Of a stretch of 64,000 bases of DNA, positions 1,287-18,401 are shown piece after piece. The notes under the pieces were generated by a model. That model saw nothing but the letters and a program-made list of their open reading frames with translations, was not told the origin of the DNA and did not search any database. Source of the stretch: a virus; the IMG/VR virus record IMGVR_UViG_3300033148_006102, positions 64,001 through 128,000 of that record; one strand, given 5' to 3'. The position numbers and the translations under genes were made by a program. How positions within the stretch are numbered: position 1 is the first letter of the stretch; every line of letters begins with the position of its first letter.

Positions 1287-1454
1287 ATTGATATGCGGCA
1301 TAAGACTATGAGAATTTGGTTTCTATGTCCAACTATCCTGTTGATGTGAAACCGAGAGTAAAAACTTTACTGCAATGGGGGAGCCGCACCGCGGCTTTTT
1401 GACACAACGGAGCCGCGAGTACTGGCGAACGCTGTATTAGTCGGCTTCCTGGGC

Positions 1455-1904
1455 ATGGTGGTCTGCCGCAATTGGCTCAGTTTGCTCAACGCACAGACTC
1501 ATAAACCCGTGTACCCGTTTGTCCGTGACGTCTTAATGGCCTCGGACGGTTTGCCACAAGAAATTATTGATGACTGGGTTGAGGCCATTTCCTTTGAAGA
1601 GTTGTATTGTCCGGATGCACAGGCCTCGGGACATCTAATCGATAATCTTGGTGAGATTCCAGTCGATACACCATTGCGTAAATTCGAAGAGGCGCTGCAG
1701 CACCGACTACACACCGCTCGTCATAGCTTGGAATACGCAATGACGCATCTCACGTCCGAGGATGTTCGCAAGCTTACATGCGGTCTGTATGTTGAGCTCC
1801 GCAAGGACTACGACATTCATCAGTATTACATGCGACCACCGGAAGAAATAAACCCGGAAGAGGGGATGCCGTTGCCGCTTGGAACGTTGCCACCAGACTG
1901 GTAA
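1455..1904 (+). CDS. Hypothetical protein (possibly starts at 1325 via a +1 shift at TTT-TGA 1397-1402)
   Basis: 149-aa ORF. The upstream 25-codon ORF 1325-1402 joins it in frame if one T of the run 1396-1400 is skipped. Confidence 0.6.
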   Translation: MVVCRNWLSLLNAQTHKPVYPFVRDVLMASDGLPQEIIDDWVEAISFEELYCPDAQASGHLIDNLGEIPVDTPLRKFEEALQHRLHTARHSLEYAMTHLTSEDVRKLTCGLYVELRKDYDIHQYYMRPPEEINPEEGMPLPLGTLPPDW

Positions 1905-1923
1905 AAGTTTTTCACAAAATCTC

Positions 1924-1952
1924 TTGATTCTTGATGCTATCACAGATACCTT
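1924..1952 (+). promoter_or_regulatory. Sigma70-like promoter of the tRNA island
   Basis: TTGATT-17 bp-TACCTT; the same -10 hexamer occurs at 17989. Confidence 0.55.
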
Positions 1953-1966
1953 TACGTCTTACTGTA

Positions 1967-2107
1967 ATGGATAGCTTTTGCTACATGTTGCGGATGAGAC
2001 CAATGCGTTTGATAAGACAAGCCGAACCGAAAACGACACCAGTCACCCATAATATGGGTCGACAGGTGATTGATTTCGCGTGGAAGGATCCCGGCCGGTT
2101 TGCTTAA
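1967..2107 (+). CDS. Putative attenuator leader peptide MDSFCYMLRMRPMRLIRQAEPKTTPVTHNMGRQVIDFAWKDPGRFA
   Basis: 46 codons translated by hand; the last codons overlap an antiterminator strand (2090-2103). Confidence 0.55.
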   Translation: MDSFCYMLRMRPMRLIRQAEPKTTPVTHNMGRQVIDFAWKDPGRFA

Positions 2108-2129
2108 AAGACGCTGAACATAGTAGCGC

Positions 2130-2167
2130 AAACCGGCGGGAACTCAAAAGCCCGCCGGTTTCTTTTT
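2130..2167 (+). terminator. Intrinsic terminator with alternative antiterminator pairing
   Basis: AAACCGGCGGG/CCCGCCGGTTT 11-bp stem followed by CTTTTT; 2128-2140 can instead pair with 2090-2103. Confidence 0.8.
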
Positions 2168-2200
2168 GACAACTTTGTGATCACCGGGAGCAGCATTAGA

Positions 2201-2283
2201 TCAGGGCAACCTTCGGGGTGAAGGAGCGGGCTGTTAACCCGTCGTGAGAAATCACATGCTGGGTTCGACACCCAGGCCCTGAG
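2201..2283 (+). tRNA. tRNA-Asn(GTT), atypical: long variable arm, no encoded CCA
   Basis: TCAGGGC/GCCCTGA acceptor, G73, loop CT-GTT-AA, V-arm GTGA-GAAA-TCAC, T-loop TTCGACA; followed by CCC. Confidence 0.75.
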
Positions 2284-2286
2284 CCC

Positions 2287-2340
2287 TTGAACCCTCCTCG
2301 CAGAATGTTATAGTGTAGTTAACTTTTGTAAGGAGGGTTC
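2287..2340 (+). promoter_or_regulatory. Internal promoter inside an RBS-sequestering hairpin for the HNH gene
   Basis: TTGAAC-16-TATAGT with an extended TG; inverted repeat GAACCCTCCT (2289-98)/AGGAGGGTTC (2331-40) covers the AGGAGG SD. Confidence 0.55.
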
Positions 2341-2342
2341 GA

Positions 2343-2888
2343 ATGGGAACATCGCAGCATGTTAAAGATTGGCGGGCGCGAACAAAGGCACGGATGGTCG
2401 CGGCAATGGGAGGCGCATGTGTTTGTTGTGGTTACGACACGTACGAGGGAGCGCTGCTTTTTCATCATCGAGATCCGAGCACGAAAGATTTTTCGTTGAG
2501 CGGAGTTCGAATGAATCCGAAGAAGTGGTCACGGATTGTCGAGGAACTGAGAAAATGTGTGCTCGTTTGTTGGAACTGCCATATCGAGTTACATGCGGGC
2601 TTACGAAACATACCTGTAGGTGCGGCGGGCTTTGATGAATCGTTTGCCGATTATCGGGCAGAACAACGGGCGAAACTTTTTGATACGTGTCCTGTTTGTG
2701 GGGATAGAAAACGTAAACGACGGAAGTACTGTTCCATCGCATGTAGCCATGAAAATAAAAAGCGTGTATCTGATGAACAATTACGCGCAATGGCAGAACA
2801 AGGAGCAAACTATTCGCAGATAGGACGCGAGTACGGGATTTCTGGAAATGCTGTGAAGAAACGACTGGAGAAATTAAACGGGGTGTAG
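2343..2888 (+). CDS. HNH endonuclease with C-terminal Zn-ribbon/HTH
   Basis: CVCCGY...LLFHHRDP...KCVLVCWNCHIELH; the stop codon lies inside tRNA-Pro. Confidence 0.8.
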   Translation: MGTSQHVKDWRARTKARMVAAMGGACVCCGYDTYEGALLFHHRDPSTKDFSLSGVRMNPKKWSRIVEELRKCVLVCWNCHIELHAGLRNIPVGAAGFDESFADYRAEQRAKLFDTCPVCGDRKRKRRKYCSIACSHENKKRVSDEQLRAMAEQGANYSQIGREYGISGNAVKKRLEKLNGV

Positions 2889-2953
2889 TTCAGAGGAAGA
2901 ACGCCGTGTTTGGGACGCGGAGGCCGGGATTTCAAAATTCCCCACCCCGACCA
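2879..2953 (+). tRNA. tRNA-Pro(TGG)
   Basis: CGGGGTG/CACCCCG-A-CCA; loop TT-TGG-GA. Confidence 0.92.
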
Positions 2954-2962
2954 CTTGAGGAT

Positions 2963-3040
2963 GCCTAGCGAGGCCGAAGTAGTCGAGGCACTTGGTTGTG
3001 GTCCAAGGGGAAGTGGGCGCAAGTCCCATCGCTAGGCCCA
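2963..3040 (+). tRNA. tRNA-His(GTG)
   Basis: Encoded G-1:C73, CCTAGCG/CGCTAGG, loop TT-GTG-GT, CCA. Confidence 0.9.
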
Positions 3041-15435: not shown

Positions 15436-17031
15436 ATGGCGAACAAGTCAATTTTCAGCACCCAGCGGGGGCCTGTACATCGACAGTACGGGGAAAGTGT
15501 GAAGACCGTTGATACGGTCAATGAGGCAGGCGGAGAGGCTTACAGCTTCACAGCAAAGTCTGCATTGGCGCAGTTGGCATCGACGGGCTGCTTTGGCAAC
15601 ACGTTCTATGTGAATGCCAAGAGTCAGCTTGACAAGGTTCAGGAATTGTTGCCACAGGTTGACAGCGAGTTTTTGGCCAAGCTGGCCGTATATGCCCGCC
15701 AGAAGGGTTACATGAAGGACATGCCGGCGCTCATGCTCGCGTATCTCTTCGCGCATGCGAAGGATTCTGCGACAGTTGGCGCGTATTTCAAGGCAGCGTT
15801 CCCGGAGGTCATGGACAATGGCCGTATGTTGCGAAACTTTGTCCAGATCATCCGTAGTGGCGTCACCGGGCGTAAGTCGTTCGGTACGGCCGGCAAGCGT
15901 GTGATCCAGGACTGGTTGACTAACCGGTCATACTGGAAGTTGTTCGGCGAAGCAGTTGGCAATGATCCGTCGATGTGTGATGTGCTCAAGATGACGCGGC
16001 CGCATCCAAAGGATGATGAGCAGCGTGCATTGTTTGGTTACATCACTGATGCGAAGGAAGGTTGGGACCGCGAGGCTCTGCCGGACTTCGTGAAGGAATT
16101 TGAGGCCTTCAAGCAGGATCAGACCAAACCTGTACCGAACGTTTCATTCGAACGGTTGTCTGCCCTTCCGCTTGGAAAGGAACACTGGATCGAGATCGCC
16201 AAGAAGGCGACTTGGTTCCAGACGCTCAAATCTCTTAACACGTACAAGCGTCATGGGGCGCTTGAGCATTCTGATGTTGTCGACATTGTCGCTGAGCGTT
16301 TGGCAGATCTTGAGTTGGTCAAGAAGGCCAAGGTATTTCCGTACCAGATCTTTGTGGCTTACAAGGCCGCGAATGACCTGCCACGGAAGATTACTAATGC
16401 GCTGCAGGATGCGCTGGAGCACGCGCTCCGAAACATCCCATTTTATGAGGGCCAGGTTTACATCTTCCCAGATGTTTCCGGCTCAATGTTATGGGGTAAC
16501 TTGACAGGTCATTCGCAGAGTTCAATTCGTTGTATTGACGTGGCGGCATTGATCACCGCGGCGATCATGAAGACGAACTATCTGGCGGAAGTACTTCCGT
16601 TTGATACACGCGTGCATGATGCGAAGTCATTGAATCATCGTGATTCAGTAGTACGCAACGCAGAGATCTTGTCGCGCTTTGGCGGTGGCGGAACGTACTG
16701 CGAGCTTCCGCTGCGTGAACTGAACGACCGTAACGCGAAGGGCGACCTGTTAATCTACGTCTCGGATAACGAGTCGTGGGTCGGCGCCGGCTATCGCAGC
16801 CATACAGGCTTGCTCAATGAGTGGGCGAAGTTCAAGCAGCGTAACCGGCAGGCCAAGATGGTCTGCATTGATCTGCAGGCTAACACCAGCACGCAGGCAA
16901 CGGATACGCCGGACATCTTGAATGTCGGTGGATTCTCTGATCAGGTGTTCAACGTTATCGACGCCTTTTTGAAGGGTGGATCTGATAAGGAACATTGGGT
17001 CAAGGAAATCGAGAAAGTTTATCTAGGATAG
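15436..17031 (+). CDS. rsr: Ro60/TROVE RNA-binding protein (Rsr)
   Basis: NEAGGEAY, LAQLASTGCFGNTFY, YARQKGYMKDMP, MLRNFVQIIRSG, vWA DVSGSM, SDNESW, LNVGGFSDQVF. Confidence 0.95.
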   Translation: MANKSIFSTQRGPVHRQYGESVKTVDTVNEAGGEAYSFTAKSALAQLASTGCFGNTFYVNAKSQLDKVQELLPQVDSEFLAKLAVYARQKGYMKDMPALMLAYLFAHAKDSATVGAYFKAAFPEVMDNGRMLRNFVQIIRSGVTGRKSFGTAGKRVIQDWLTNRSYWKLFGEAVGNDPSMCDVLKMTRPHPKDDEQRALFGYITDAKEGWDREALPDFVKEFEAFKQDQTKPVPNVSFERLSALPLGKEHWIEIAKKATWFQTLKSLNTYKRHGALEHSDVVDIVAERLADLELVKKAKVFPYQIFVAYKAANDLPRKITNALQDALEHALRNIPFYEGQVYIFPDVSGSMLWGNLTGHSQSSIRCIDVAALITAAIMKTNYLAEVLPFDTRVHDAKSLNHRDSVVRNAEILSRFGGGGTYCELPLRELNDRNAKGDLLIYVSDNESWVGAGYRSHTGLLNEWAKFKQRNRQAKMVCIDLQANTSTQATDTPDILNVGGFSDQVFNVIDAFLKGGSDKEHWVKEIEKVYLG

Positions 17032-17037
17032 GAATTT

Positions 17038-17177
17038 GGGGCGAATGCGGACGGGATTACATTGATTCATAATCCGTTGGTCGGAGGTTCGAATCCTTCC
17101 CTCGCCACCACTATGGCGAGGTAGCTCAGTCTGGTAGAGCAGCGTATATGTCAAATCTCGTCGATTCTCGTCGCCCC
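17038..17177 (+). ncRNA. yrlA: YrlA-like Y RNA with permuted tRNA module
   Basis: GGGGCGA/TCGCCCC closing stem; T-arm, acceptor 3' strand with ACCA, acceptor 5' strand, D-arm in permuted order; directly after rsr. Confidence 0.85.
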
Positions 17178-17196
17178 ATCCTTTTCCTTCTTATTT

Positions 17197-17273
17197 GGGT
17201 GAATGCCGGTATGGGAGTACATTTCTGCGTGTAATGCTGAACCATGACCACTCTCTACCATCTTTCGTCACCC
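17197..17273 (+). ncRNA. Short Y-RNA-like RNA 2
   Basis: GGGTGA/TCACCC stem; shared GAATGC..TACATT and TCGTC motifs. Confidence 0.75.
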
Positions 17274-17285
17274 ACCCTTTTGAAA

Positions 17286-17353
17286 TGGCCGAATGCCGAT
17301 TGGACTACATTGTATCCATCACAAACAACGTCTAATCATAAGCTCGTCGGCCA
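17286..17353 (+). ncRNA. Short Y-RNA-like RNA 3
   Basis: TGGCCGA/TCGGCCA stem; GAATGC..TACATT; inner GATTGGAC/GTCTAATC stem. Confidence 0.75.
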
Positions 17354-17362
17354 TTTTCTTTT

Positions 17363-17759
17363 GGGGGTGAGTAGGATCGACTGGTCGTTACTGACTGGAA
17401 GAAGCGTGTCGCAGTTGACCAACACCTGCGTTATCAAGATGGTCGCAAACCCAGATGGCAACATCCATCACATGAGCGATTACGCTCGTCCGCAGCTTCA
17501 GGCTGCATAAAGGACAGCTCCGACCAGGTAGCTACCACACCTGGCTGCGGGATACCAACCCAAGGTGAGAAACCAAACAGAGTTAGGTCGGTGAACATGC
17601 CGCAGAGGGGATTCACCATCGAAGTTACGGCGGATAAGGCGTGACCGGGCTGTCGTCGGCTCAGAGGATCGCTCGAAAACATAGATGACGACTACACACG
17701 TAGAAGTGCCGGAATGATCGATACAGCACACGGGGTGCGACTCCCCGTCACCTCCACCA
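17363..17759 (+). ncRNA. ssrA: tmRNA; tag (A)ANPDGNIHHMSDYARPQLQAA
   Basis: GGGGGTG/CACCTCC-A-CCA with G3:U70, GGATCGAC 5' motif, PK1-like pairings, tag ORF 17445-17510 ending AA. Confidence 0.93.
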
Positions 17760-17956: not shown

Positions 17957-17966
17957 ACGAAGAGGG

Positions 17967-17994
17967 TTGACATCCGATTTATCGAATGTACCTT
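17967..17994 (+). promoter_or_regulatory. Sigma70-like promoter
   Basis: TTGACA-16-TACCTT right after the terminator. Confidence 0.65.
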
Positions 17995-18144
17995 GAGATG
18001 TTCGCGGAGCTTAGCAGGCTTGCACTGCGATTTCGGTTTCTCTGTTCCGACCTGGCACGCTATGCGTGATTAAAAACAGAGTGGTGGACTGGGACAGTGG
18101 ATGGAGGACACCAAATCCGCCGGAAGCCTGTCACGCCCTCGTCT

Positions 18145-18176
18145 TGATCCGGGACGCTAACTTGGATCAGCTTTTT
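18145..18176 (+). terminator. Terminator-like hairpin ending a structured leader
   Basis: TGATCCGGG/CTTGGATCA followed by GCTTTTT. Confidence 0.55.
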
Positions 18177-18184
18177 GAATTTGT

Positions 18185-18262
18185 TGCGGGGTGGAGCAGT
18201 CTAGTCAGCTCGCAAGGCTCATAACCTTGAGGTCGTCAGTTCAAATCCTTCCCCCGCCACCA
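18185..18262 (+). tRNA. Initiator-like tRNA-Met(CAT) with degenerate T-stem
   Basis: TGCGGGG/CCCCGCC-A-CCA with 1:72 mismatch, fMet-type D-arm; T-stem GTCAG/CCTTC has 3 mismatches. Confidence 0.7.
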
Positions 18263-18275
18263 ATTTGGAGAAAAG

Positions 18276-18341
18276 ATGAAGACGTTACTGAGTTACTCGT
18301 CCTTGTATCTGTGCCTCTCAGGCGCGGAGGTTGGCGTGTAA
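18276..18341 (+). CDS. Putative attenuator leader peptide MKTLLSYSSLYLCLSGAEVGV
   Basis: GGAG SD; 21 codons followed by a terminator. Confidence 0.55.
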   Translation: MKTLLSYSSLYLCLSGAEVGV

Positions 18342-18366
18342 CTGGATCTTCATCACCTACCGGTCC

Positions 18367-18401
18367 CAGAAACCCGCCAGCACAACCTGGCGGGTTTTCT
18401 G
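18367..18401 (+). terminator. Intrinsic terminator
   Basis: CAGAAACCCGCCAG/CTGGCGGGTTTTCTG. Confidence 0.8.

What the first reader, a model, noticed from the sequence alone, without database searches (positions are those of the whole stretch)
1924..2171. Attenuator-like switch at the head of the tRNA island; leader peptide contains all 20 amino acids
Promoter, then a 46-codon leader, then an intrinsic terminator, then the first tRNA. The last leader codons (2090-2103, CCCGGCCGGTTTGC) pair with the terminator 5' arm (2128-2140, GCAAACCGGCGGG) over 13 bp with one bulge. By classical attenuation logic, a ribosome reaching the stop blocks the antiterminator (OFF), while earlier stalling allows read-through (ON). 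The peptide uses all 20 amino acids and codons such as AGA, CGG, CGA and ATA, and contains an R-x-R motif like macrolide-arrest motifs. Inference: a general translation-stress sensor that turns on phage tRNAs when host tRNAs are depleted or cleaved.
Basis: partly seen in the sequence, partly recalled or inferred. Interest (0 to 1): 0.85.

Follow-up and report, generated by a model that had tools for sequence, protein, structure and literature searches.

The report
Switch-like terminator leader before phage tRNAs
In front of the tRNA gene island of an uncultured 195-kb phage lies a strongly folded 205-base leader RNA ending in a strong transcription stop that is wired like a classical attenuator, but I found no good evidence that the small reading frame inside it is translated, so the proposed "translation-stress sensor" is possible, not shown.

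Summary
These are a promoter-like site, a 46-codon ORF with all 20 amino acids, a strong intrinsic terminator, a 13-bp antiterminator pairing, and a non-canonical tRNA-Asn-like gene downstream.

The antiterminator pairing exceeds chance: 0.35% of shuffles match it, about 0.1% of natural genome windows do, and it is the only such case among 20 terminator-like hairpins in the genome. A third helix (1:2) sequesters the antiterminator, so the full attenuator topology is there. The terminated and read-through folds differ by 4 kcal/mol.

The case for a ribosome sensor is weak:
- The ORF has no Shine-Dalgarno site, while 87% of the phage's genes have one.
- Its AUG lies inside a hairpin.
- An ORF of this length arises by chance 12% of the time, and its codon usage is equivocal.
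- It has no codon run and no homologue among 1.8 billion protein-cluster representatives.
- It runs through a very stable fold (-46.6 kcal/mol, z -6).

No relative carries the leader, so conservation could not be tested.

Best reading: a default-off conditional terminator (about 0.5) whose trigger is unknown. The ribosome version is about 0.2, and a plain small RNA with a constitutive terminator about 0.3. The scan has made similar claims on other phage genomes, and those remain unverified.

The parts
1924..1952 (+). Promoter-like site TTGATT-17-TACCTT. The predicted transcription start is near 1959-1961.
   Evidence: It is not called by the generic scan. It shares TTGA..-N16/17-TATC-N5-TACCTT with the intergenic site at 17967. 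These are the only two genome matches to TTGA[CT][AT]-N15-18-TACCTT, and both are intergenic on the + strand.
1962..1993 (+). 5' hairpin that encloses the AUG at 1967 and the AUG at 1985.
   Evidence: It is present in the MFE and centroid folds; dG is -10.3.
1967..2107 (+). 46-codon ORF, the putative leader peptide. Four in-frame ATGs lie at 1967, 1985, 1994 and 2003.
   Evidence: Found. There is no SD (+0.7 kcal/mol). The codon score of 0.05 lies between real genes (0.30) and spurious ORFs (-0.07). A phmmer search of 1.8 billion representatives gave only one marginal hit, E 2.5e-4.
2005..2024 (+). Segment 1, the anti-antiterminator and 5' strand of the closing helix P1.
   Evidence: It forms a 17-bp interrupted helix with 2096-2114. 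Duplex dG is -23.7, matched by 0.35% of shuffles and 1.1% of natural windows.
2028..2078 (+). Long irregular hairpin P2 inside the P1 junction.
   Evidence: The region 2000-2118 folds at -46.6 kcal/mol with z -6.0, and 0 of 300 shuffles do as well. The reverse strand folds at only -39.8.
2089..2115 (+). Segment 2. It pairs either with segment 1 or with the terminator 5' arm, and it contains the stop codon at 2105-2107.
   Evidence: The A:B hairpin (2089-2141) has dG -25.0.
2126..2140 (+). Segment 3, the terminator 5' arm plus two flanking pairs.
2130..2170 (+). Intrinsic terminator: 11-bp GC-rich stem, 10-nt loop and a U-rich tail (TTTCTTTTT).
   Evidence: dG is -20.3. P(formed) is 0.97 in the full RNA.
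2162..2181 (+). CTTTTTGACA..TTTGTGA motif overlapping the terminator tail.
   Evidence: CT[CT]TT(T)GAC[AT] has 12 copies in the genome. Five are intergenic, and all five are on the + strand in or at the tRNA island: 1395, 2162, 3126, 12117 and 18407. None has a -10 hexamer at promoter spacing (read from the sequences).
2201..2285 (+). Non-canonical tRNA-Asn(GTT)-like gene with a long variable arm, the first gene after the terminator.
   Evidence: Relaxed ARAGORN finds it. Its Rfam match is tRNA-Sec at 33.3 bits, below threshold. ARAGORN calls a 91-nt tRNA-Asn(GTT) next to the HNH homologue in the distant relative L016; its arm was not examined.
2080..2169 (+). Alternative 29-codon ORF (GTG start) with a good SD (AGGTGAT, -6.8). 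It runs through segments 2-4 and stops in the U tract.
   Evidence: By my rough estimate about 0.3 such ORFs are expected by chance. The SD lies within the paired region of P2 in the predicted fold.

Best explanation
The stretch is most likely a short transcription unit of its own. A weak host-type promoter at 1924-1952 would drive a strongly folded RNA of about 205 nt that runs into a strong intrinsic terminator (2130-2170), placed 30-40 nt before the first tRNA-like gene.

The RNA is built as a conditional terminator of the attenuator type. Helix 1:2 (2005-2024 with 2096-2114) forms first and locks away segment 2. The terminator 3:4 then forms, and transcription stops. This is the default-off state and would release a small RNA of about 205 nt.

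If segment 1 is kept from pairing, segment 2 pairs with the terminator 5' arm (13 bp, hairpin dG -25.0 against -20.3 for the terminator). Polymerase then reads on into the tRNA-Asn-like gene and beyond.

Shown by computation: the three mutually exclusive pairings, their excess over chance, and the near-equal energies of the two full-length folds. Inferred: that the promoter fires, that the switch operates in vivo, and what triggers it.

I split the 0.5 by trigger as follows:
- About 0.3 for a trigger that needs no translation, such as a protein or RNA binding the three-way junction, or polymerase speed.
For: - Terminator and antiterminator complementarity: duplex -24.5 kcal/mol, matched by 0.35% of shuffles and by 16 of 9748 natural windows, roughly half of which I estimate overlap the locus itself. 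It is the only real case among 20 terminator-like hairpins in the genome.
- Anti-antiterminator helix 1:2: -23.7 kcal/mol, matched by 0.35% of shuffles and 1.1% of natural windows.
- Fold: region 2000-2118 has z -6.0 and folds better on the + strand.
- Energies: the full RNA is -78.3 terminated and -74.3 with 2:3 forced.
- Co-transcriptional snapshots: the MFE flips to 2:3 once segment 3 is out but segment 4 is not (transcript ends 2141-2150), and flips back at 2158 and later.
- Blocking segment 1 gives P(antiterminator) up to 0.98.
- A promoter-like site recurs at 17967, so a transcript would start just upstream and meet a terminator before any gene.
- No sigma-70-like -10 hexamer lies between the terminator and the tRNA-like gene (read).
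Against: - No relative carries the leader, so there is no covariation and no evidence of conservation.
- In context the bistability is only mildly unusual. The net gain when segment 3 pairs upstream is matched by 25% of shuffles, and the cost of losing the terminator by 7.5%.
- The finding was picked by a reader who was looking for such pairings. After allowing for about 10-20 terminators per genome, the family-wise P is about 0.03-0.07 (my calculation).
- Segments 2 and 4 also resemble a local direct repeat that includes the T-rich tail, which could be a duplication without function.
- The promoter is a weak consensus match.
- All folding is equilibrium prediction, with no experimental data.
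Confidence: 0.5

Rival explanations
1. The first reader's version, which is a sub-case of the best explanation. A ribosome translating the 46-codon frame is the trigger. Stalling at codons 15-25 (2009-2041) on scarce tRNAs frees segment 2 and gives read-through. A ribosome that reaches the stop codon, or no ribosome at all, gives termination. The peptide samples many codons, so the device reports general decoding stress.
For: - The frame covers segments 1 and 2 and stops 22 nt before the terminator stem.
- The footprint model gives the predicted ON window at codons 15-25 and OFF elsewhere.
- All four ATGs between 1967 and 2003 are in the same frame.
- Leader codons are read by the island's first-block tRNAs somewhat more often than expected: 63% against 51%, and P 0.02-0.04 when weighted by tRNA copy number.
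- The ON window contains the rare codons ATA and AGA.
- A 44-codon leader is known in pyrBI (my own knowledge).
Against: - There is no SD at any of the four ATGs (+0.7, -3.1, +1.0, -3.3 kcal/mol), against a median of -6.5 and 87% of genes at -4 or below. The phage's other candidate leader at 18276 and the HNH gene both have clear SDs.
- With a start near 1960 the message would be neither leaderless nor SD-led.
- The AUG is in a -10.3 kcal/mol hairpin.
- The frame runs through a -46.6 kcal/mol fold, far more stable than a classical 1:2 hairpin.
- The ORF length arises by chance 12% of the time, and 22% of spurious ORFs have codon scores as good.
- There is no run of regulatory codons.
- There are no homologues.
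- The plain fraction of matched codons is not significant (P about 0.1).
Confidence: 0.2
2. The unit is a constitutive small-RNA gene, or a structured 3' end, with an ordinary strong terminator. It would make a stable folded RNA of about 205 nt, comparable to the small stable RNAs encoded in the T4 tRNA cluster (my own knowledge) or to the Y-like RNAs elsewhere in this island. The downstream tRNA-like gene would then be expressed by leaky read-through or from an unrecognised promoter that involves the TTGACA motif. On this reading the 2:3 complementarity is a by-product of a local duplication of the terminator 3' arm.
For: - The fold is very strong (z -5 to -6) and prefers the + strand.
- Promoter-like and terminator signals bracket it.
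- The terminator forms with P 0.97 at equilibrium.
- Segments 2 and 4 share CCCG(G)CCGGTTT plus a T-rich tail and GAC, as a direct repeat would.
- The island holds other structured RNAs: a tmRNA, and a YrlA-like RNA next to a Ro60 gene.
- A second promoter-like site at 17967 is also followed by a rod-like 140-nt RNA, a hairpin with a U tract, and then a tRNA.
- The bistability statistic is not extreme.
Against: - It leaves the 13-bp complement of the terminator arm unexplained, at P about 0.001-0.004 per locus.
- No Rfam family matches.
- No promoter with a -10 hexamer lies between the terminator and the tRNA-like gene.
Confidence: 0.3
3. A pyrBI-style coupling device, which would be another sub-case of the switch. 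The 29-codon GTG frame at 2080-2169 has a good SD and runs through the terminator. A ribosome following the polymerase closely would prevent the terminator hairpin, so efficient translation would give read-through.
For: The SD AGGTGAT scores -6.8 kcal/mol and sits 9 nt before GTG 2080. The frame ends in the U tract.
Against: By my rough estimate about 0.3 such ORFs are expected by chance. The SD lies within the paired region of hairpin P2. There is no conservation data.
Confidence: 0.05

Closest known systems
Leader-peptide transcription attenuators of enterobacterial amino-acid operons (trpL, hisL, pheL, thrL, leuL, ilv leaders)
   Same: The layout is promoter, short ORF, four segments with mutually exclusive 1:2, 2:3 and 3:4 pairings, an intrinsic terminator, then the regulated genes. 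The default without a ribosome is termination. The modelled ON window lies over segment 1.
   Different: There is no ribosome-binding site and no run of codons for one amino acid. The 1:2 domain is far larger and more stable. The regulated genes are tRNA-like genes in a phage rather than biosynthetic enzymes. Translation is unproven.
Riboswitch and T-box expression platforms (terminator / antiterminator with a P1-type closing helix)
   Same: A long closing helix around a multi-branch junction has a 3' strand that doubles as the antiterminator. This is the usual way a ligand-bound domain controls a terminator, and it needs no translation.
   Different: No Rfam family matches, T-box included. 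No ligand or partner can be named. There are no homologues with which to define an aptamer.
pyrBI leader of E. coli (44-codon leader read through the attenuator)
   Same: The leader ORF is of similar length. The alternative GTG 2080 frame overlaps the terminator as pyrL does.
   Different: The 46-codon frame stops 22 nt before the terminator stem. No UTP-sensitive pause sites were examined.
Small stable RNAs in the phage T4 tRNA gene cluster (from my own knowledge, not tested here)
   Same: A structured RNA of about 100-200 nt and unknown function is encoded next to phage tRNA genes.
   Different: There is no sequence relation to test. The T4 RNAs are not known to carry a terminator switch.

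Membership tests
Rho-independent (intrinsic) terminator | A GC-rich hairpin directly followed by a U tract on the transcribed strand | tested here: met
   The stem is 11 bp (8 G-C pairs), dG is -20.3, and the tail is TTTCTTTTT.
Leader-peptide transcription attenuator | The terminator lies between a promoter and the first regulated gene | tested here: inconclusive
   The terminator lies 30-40 nt before the tRNA-Asn-like gene. The promoter is only a weak consensus match that recurs once elsewhere. There is no transcript data.
Leader-peptide transcription attenuator | An antiterminator that excludes the terminator, and an anti-antiterminator that excludes the antiterminator | tested here: met
   The 2:3 duplex is -24.5 and the 1:2 duplex is -23.7, each matched by 0.35% of shuffles.
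Leader-peptide transcription attenuator | A short ORF with a working translation start that overlaps segment 1 | tested here: not met
   The ORF is present, but it has no SD (+0.7 kcal/mol, against a gene median of -6.5) and its AUG is in a hairpin. Translation itself is not testable with these tools.
Leader-peptide transcription attenuator | Regulatory codons clustered where stalling frees the antiterminator | tested here: not met
   ON-window codons 15-25 are 11 codons for 9 different amino acids. Matching to downstream tRNAs is 63% against 51%, P about 0.1.
Leader-peptide transcription attenuator | Conservation of the ORF and the pairings in relatives | not testable with these tools
   No relative carries the leader. 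The nearest phages, at 40-48% protein identity, have a different locus organisation.
Known riboswitch, T-box or other curated cis-regulatory RNA (Rfam 15) | A match to a family covariance model | tested here: not met
   Nothing credible lies in 1900-2200. The only overlapping matches are a 9-bit fungal SRP hit (E 7.1) and a 9-bit lncRNA hit on the minus strand at 2165-2215 (E 9.4).
Conserved small protein | Detectable homologues of the 58/46-residue product | tested here: not met
   Exhaustive phmmer gave one marginal hit (E 2.5e-4, five short stretches in a 241-residue protein).
rrn/lambda-type boxA antitermination site | A boxA consensus bound by NusB-NusE | not tested
   The resemblance of GCTCTTTGACA to rrn boxA is recalled from memory. 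Only the motif's non-random distribution was tested.

The most novel reading that the evidence does not exclude
A phage measures the decoding capacity of the infected cell with a translated, codon-diverse leader. It opens a terminator in front of its own tRNA or tRNA-like genes when ribosomes slow down. This would be ribosome-mediated attenuation applied to tRNA genes, acting as a homeostat against tRNA depletion or cleavage by host defences.
Probability: 0.2. Interest if true: 0.8.

Novelty: new variant of a known kind. Interest (0 to 1): 0.45.

Why it matters
Phage tRNA arrays are widely thought to compensate for codon-usage mismatch or for host defences that cleave tRNAs. How their expression is controlled is largely unknown. 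Two full-text searches found no paper describing a terminator/antiterminator switch in front of phage tRNA genes.

A conditional terminator here would mean the phage regulates its tRNA supply instead of expressing it constitutively. If the trigger were the ribosome, it would extend a textbook amino-acid-sensing circuit to tRNA genes.

The element is short and self-contained. The three pairings can be tested with a handful of mutants in vitro, even though the host of this uncultured phage is unknown.

Tried and rejected
**Relatives**
- Single-protein scans of IMG/VR with the upstream ORFan and with baseplate J found none.
- Exact-pattern scans of IMG/VR for the terminator and for the odd tRNA found none.
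- blastn of 1400-3000 against 50,697 phage records matched only tRNA-Pro. I first misread that hit as lying in the ORFan and corrected it.
- The ORFan has no homologue in 5.8 billion proteins.
- Baseplate J relatives (39-43% identity; the two I fetched, P0004 and P0006) have no tRNA island after the gene.
- In the four Ro60-relative loci I scanned (44-45% identity), no tRNA lies within the fetched 10-kb flanks.
- HNH relatives led to a real tRNA island in a 190-kb contig (L016). It has no similar leader, motif or promoter class.
- The records behind L004-L006 are not held for whole-record search.
- The Vibrio phage hits are too distant and have no island at that locus.

**Expression**
- No sequencing run was listed and no RNA holder was listed.

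**Internal comparisons**
- The leader before tRNA-Met at 17958-18190 is not alignable to this one.
- The 21-codon leader at 18276 has an SD and a Leu/Ser/Tyr/Cys run, but its terminator stays formed (P 0.92) for every modelled ribosome position. It therefore gives no internal precedent for a working attenuator.
- The second-best "antiterminator" in the genome, at 138,682 on the minus strand, is just part of one long palindrome.

**Readings considered and dropped**
- T-box reading: no T-box match in Rfam. The unpaired AAC at 2025-2027 facing the Asn anticodon is a 3-nt coincidence.
- Y-RNA reading: no Ro-binding helix was found.
- Macrolide-arrest R-x-R: not informative.

The single metagenome pattern scan was not spent, because the protein evidence shows there are no close relatives.

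Full report
**Setting.** The window is bases 64,001-128,000 of a 195,108-bp IMG/VR phage record with direct terminal repeats. A baseplate J gene ends at 1198. A 149-residue ORFan occupies 1455-1904; its codon usage is gene-like (score 0.32) and it has no homologue anywhere. The spacer 1905-2200 follows. After it comes a + strand island with 28 ARAGORN tRNAs, a tmRNA, a YrlA-like RNA, Ro60, HNH genes and more.

**Observation.**
- The ORF runs from ATG 1967 to TAA 2105-2107. It has 46 codons and uses all 20 amino acids.
- The terminator has an 11-bp stem (2130-2140 / 2151-2161), a 10-nt loop, a U-rich tail and dG -20.3. The consensus scanner missed it because its loop limit is 8 nt.
- The antiterminator pairs 2089-2104 with 2126-2140 over 13 bp with one bulge, at -24.5 kcal/mol.
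- The "first tRNA" at 2201-2285 is not called at default settings. Relaxed ARAGORN calls it tRNA-Asn(GTT) with a long variable arm. Its Rfam match is a sub-threshold tRNA-Sec hit. ARAGORN also calls a 91-nt tRNA-Asn(GTT) next to the HNH homologue in a distant relative, so the gene is probably real.

**Is it more than chance?**
- The pairing is. It is matched by 0.35% of dinucleotide shuffles. It is matched by 16 of 9748 natural 161-nt windows of the genome, roughly half of which I estimate overlap the locus itself.
- Among 20 terminator-like hairpins genome-wide it ranks first. The only comparable case is part of one long palindrome.
- The ORF is not. An ATG ORF of 46 or more codons arises in 11.7% of shuffles of the spacer.
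- All 20 amino acids occur in 1.2% of 46-residue windows, and 4 of 320 small ORFs in the genome also have them. This is a post hoc property.

**Anatomy beyond the finding.** The full RNA (1960-2175) folds at -78.3 kcal/mol with z -5.5. It has four parts:
- a 5' hairpin (1962-1993) that encloses the AUG;
- a 17-bp interrupted helix between 2005-2024 and 2096-2114;
- a long hairpin (2028-2078) inside that helix;
- the terminator.

Without the terminator, region 2000-2118 still has z -6.0, and the + strand folds better than the - strand. Helix 1:2 is itself unusual: 0.35% of shuffles and 1.1% of natural windows match it. The complete 1:2 / 2:3 / 3:4 topology of an attenuator or riboswitch platform is therefore present.

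Forcing 2:3 costs only 4 kcal/mol in the full RNA. MFE snapshots flip to 2:3 while segment 3 is out and segment 4 is not, and flip back once the terminator is complete.

A stricter control tempers this. The net gain from segment 3 pairing upstream is matched by 25% of shuffles. The cost of losing the terminator is matched by 7.5%.

**Promoter.** TTGATT-17-TACCTT fails the generic scan. The only other genome match to that pattern, TTGACA-16-TACCTT at 17967, is also intergenic, on the + strand, directly after a terminator-like hairpin, and shares TATC-N5. A few other intergenic TTGAC(A/T) sites carry TA(C/T)NNT hexamers. A transcription start near 1960 is plausible but unproven.

**Is the frame translated?** The evidence is mostly against.
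- SD energy is +0.7 kcal/mol at 1967 and no better than -3.3 at the three other in-frame ATGs. The median at gene starts is -6.5, and 87% of genes are at -4 or below. The HNH gene (-12.6) and the 21-codon ORF at 18276 (-6.4) have clear SDs.
- The AUG sits in a -10.3 kcal/mol hairpin.
- The codon score of 0.05 lies at the 6th percentile of real gene windows, and 22% of spurious ORFs exceed it.
- Exhaustive phmmer against 1.8 billion representatives gave one marginal hit.

Some points favour translation.
- The frame spans segments 1 and 2 and stops 22 nt before the terminator stem.
- All four ATGs share one frame.
- A footprint model gives read-through only for ribosomes at codons 15-25, and termination for ribosomes elsewhere, at the stop codon, or absent.
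- Codon matching to the first-block tRNAs is weakly elevated: 63% against 51%, P about 0.1. Weighted by tRNA copy number, P is 0.02-0.04, driven largely by the five ATGs.

A second frame, GTG 2080-2169, has a good SD and crosses the terminator. It is not beyond chance.

**Comparison within and outside the genome.** The other candidate leader at 18276 has an SD and a striking Leu/Ser/Tyr/Cys run. Its terminator is insensitive to ribosome position in the same model. The phage therefore offers no internal precedent for a working attenuator.

No relative carries this leader. The nearest phages share 40-48% protein identity and organise these loci differently. No Rfam family matches. Two literature searches found no description of attenuation of phage tRNA genes.

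**Earlier scan notes.** The scan's own notes hold many similar claims on other phage genomes, including two "all-amino-acid leader" cases. They are unverified. One later check priced the bold reading at 30/100. I did not count them as evidence.

**Verdict.**
- The RNA architecture is real and unusual.
- The best reading is a default-off conditional terminator ahead of the first tRNA-like gene, at about 0.5. The split is roughly 0.2 for a ribosome trigger and 0.3 for a translation-independent trigger.
- A constitutive small-RNA gene or terminator, with the complement as a duplication relic, is about 0.3.
- The claim that the device gates the whole island is weak. Further promoter-like sites and terminators lie inside the island.

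Noticed in passing
window 2284-2347: A very stable hairpin (-32.3 kcal/mol, z -6.3) pairs CCCTCCT with the AAGGAGGG Shine-Dalgarno site of the HNH gene (start 2343). A good extended -10 promoter-like site (TTGAAC-16-TGnTATAGT, 2287-2314) lies inside it. Read-through transcripts would keep the HNH gene silent, and transcripts started inside the hairpin would free the SD. From memory, this is the logic known for T4 homing-endonuclease genes.
   Followed up: partly
window 1395, 2162, 3126, 12117, 18407: The motif CT(C/T)TT(T)GAC(A/T), often followed by TTTGTGA, has 12 copies in the genome. Five are intergenic, and all five are on the + strand in or at the tRNA island. Three directly follow hairpins with T tracts, and none has a -10 hexamer at promoter spacing. 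From memory it resembles rrn boxA (GCTCTTTAACA).
   Followed up: partly
window 18276-18400: A 21-codon ORF with an SD has 12 consecutive Leu/Ser/Tyr/Cys codons. It precedes a strong terminator and then the Tyr-like, Leu, Ser and Cys tRNAs. In the ribosome-footprint model the terminator stays formed (P 0.92) at every position, so no antiterminator is evident. Its codon score is very low (-1.42).
   Followed up: partly
window 17958-18184: A promoter-like site (TTGACA-16-TACCTT) is followed by a rod-like fold of about 140 nt (-65.2 kcal/mol, z -1.7), then a hairpin plus CTTTTTGAAT, directly before tRNA-Met at 18185. The layout parallels the unit studied here, but there is no sequence similarity.
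   Followed up: partly
L016 8001-8641 (190-kb ENA contig) and window 2201-2888: An HNH homologue (48% identity) sits directly beside a 91-nt tRNA-Asn(GTT) in a distant relative. The gene order is reversed relative to this phage. The unusually long tRNA-Asn and the HNH gene seem to travel together.
   Followed up: no
L016 120-193 and L006 15602-15676 (minus strand): Distant relatives carry a tRNA with a CUA anticodon, which ARAGORN calls 'Pyl'. This is a possible amber suppressor. Stop-codon use in those phages was not examined.
   Followed up: no
window 74640-74730 (genome 138,640-138,730): A long perfect palindrome of about 30 bp per arm around a bidirectional terminator. It produced a false 'antiterminator' signal in my genome-wide control.
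   Followed up: partly
window 15436-17759: A Ro60/TROVE protein with a vWA domain is followed by a YrlA-like RNA (17038-17180, 64.9 bits, just under the threshold of 69) and a tmRNA (17363-17759). In the four Ro60-relative viral contigs I scanned, no tRNA lies nearby.
   Followed up: partly
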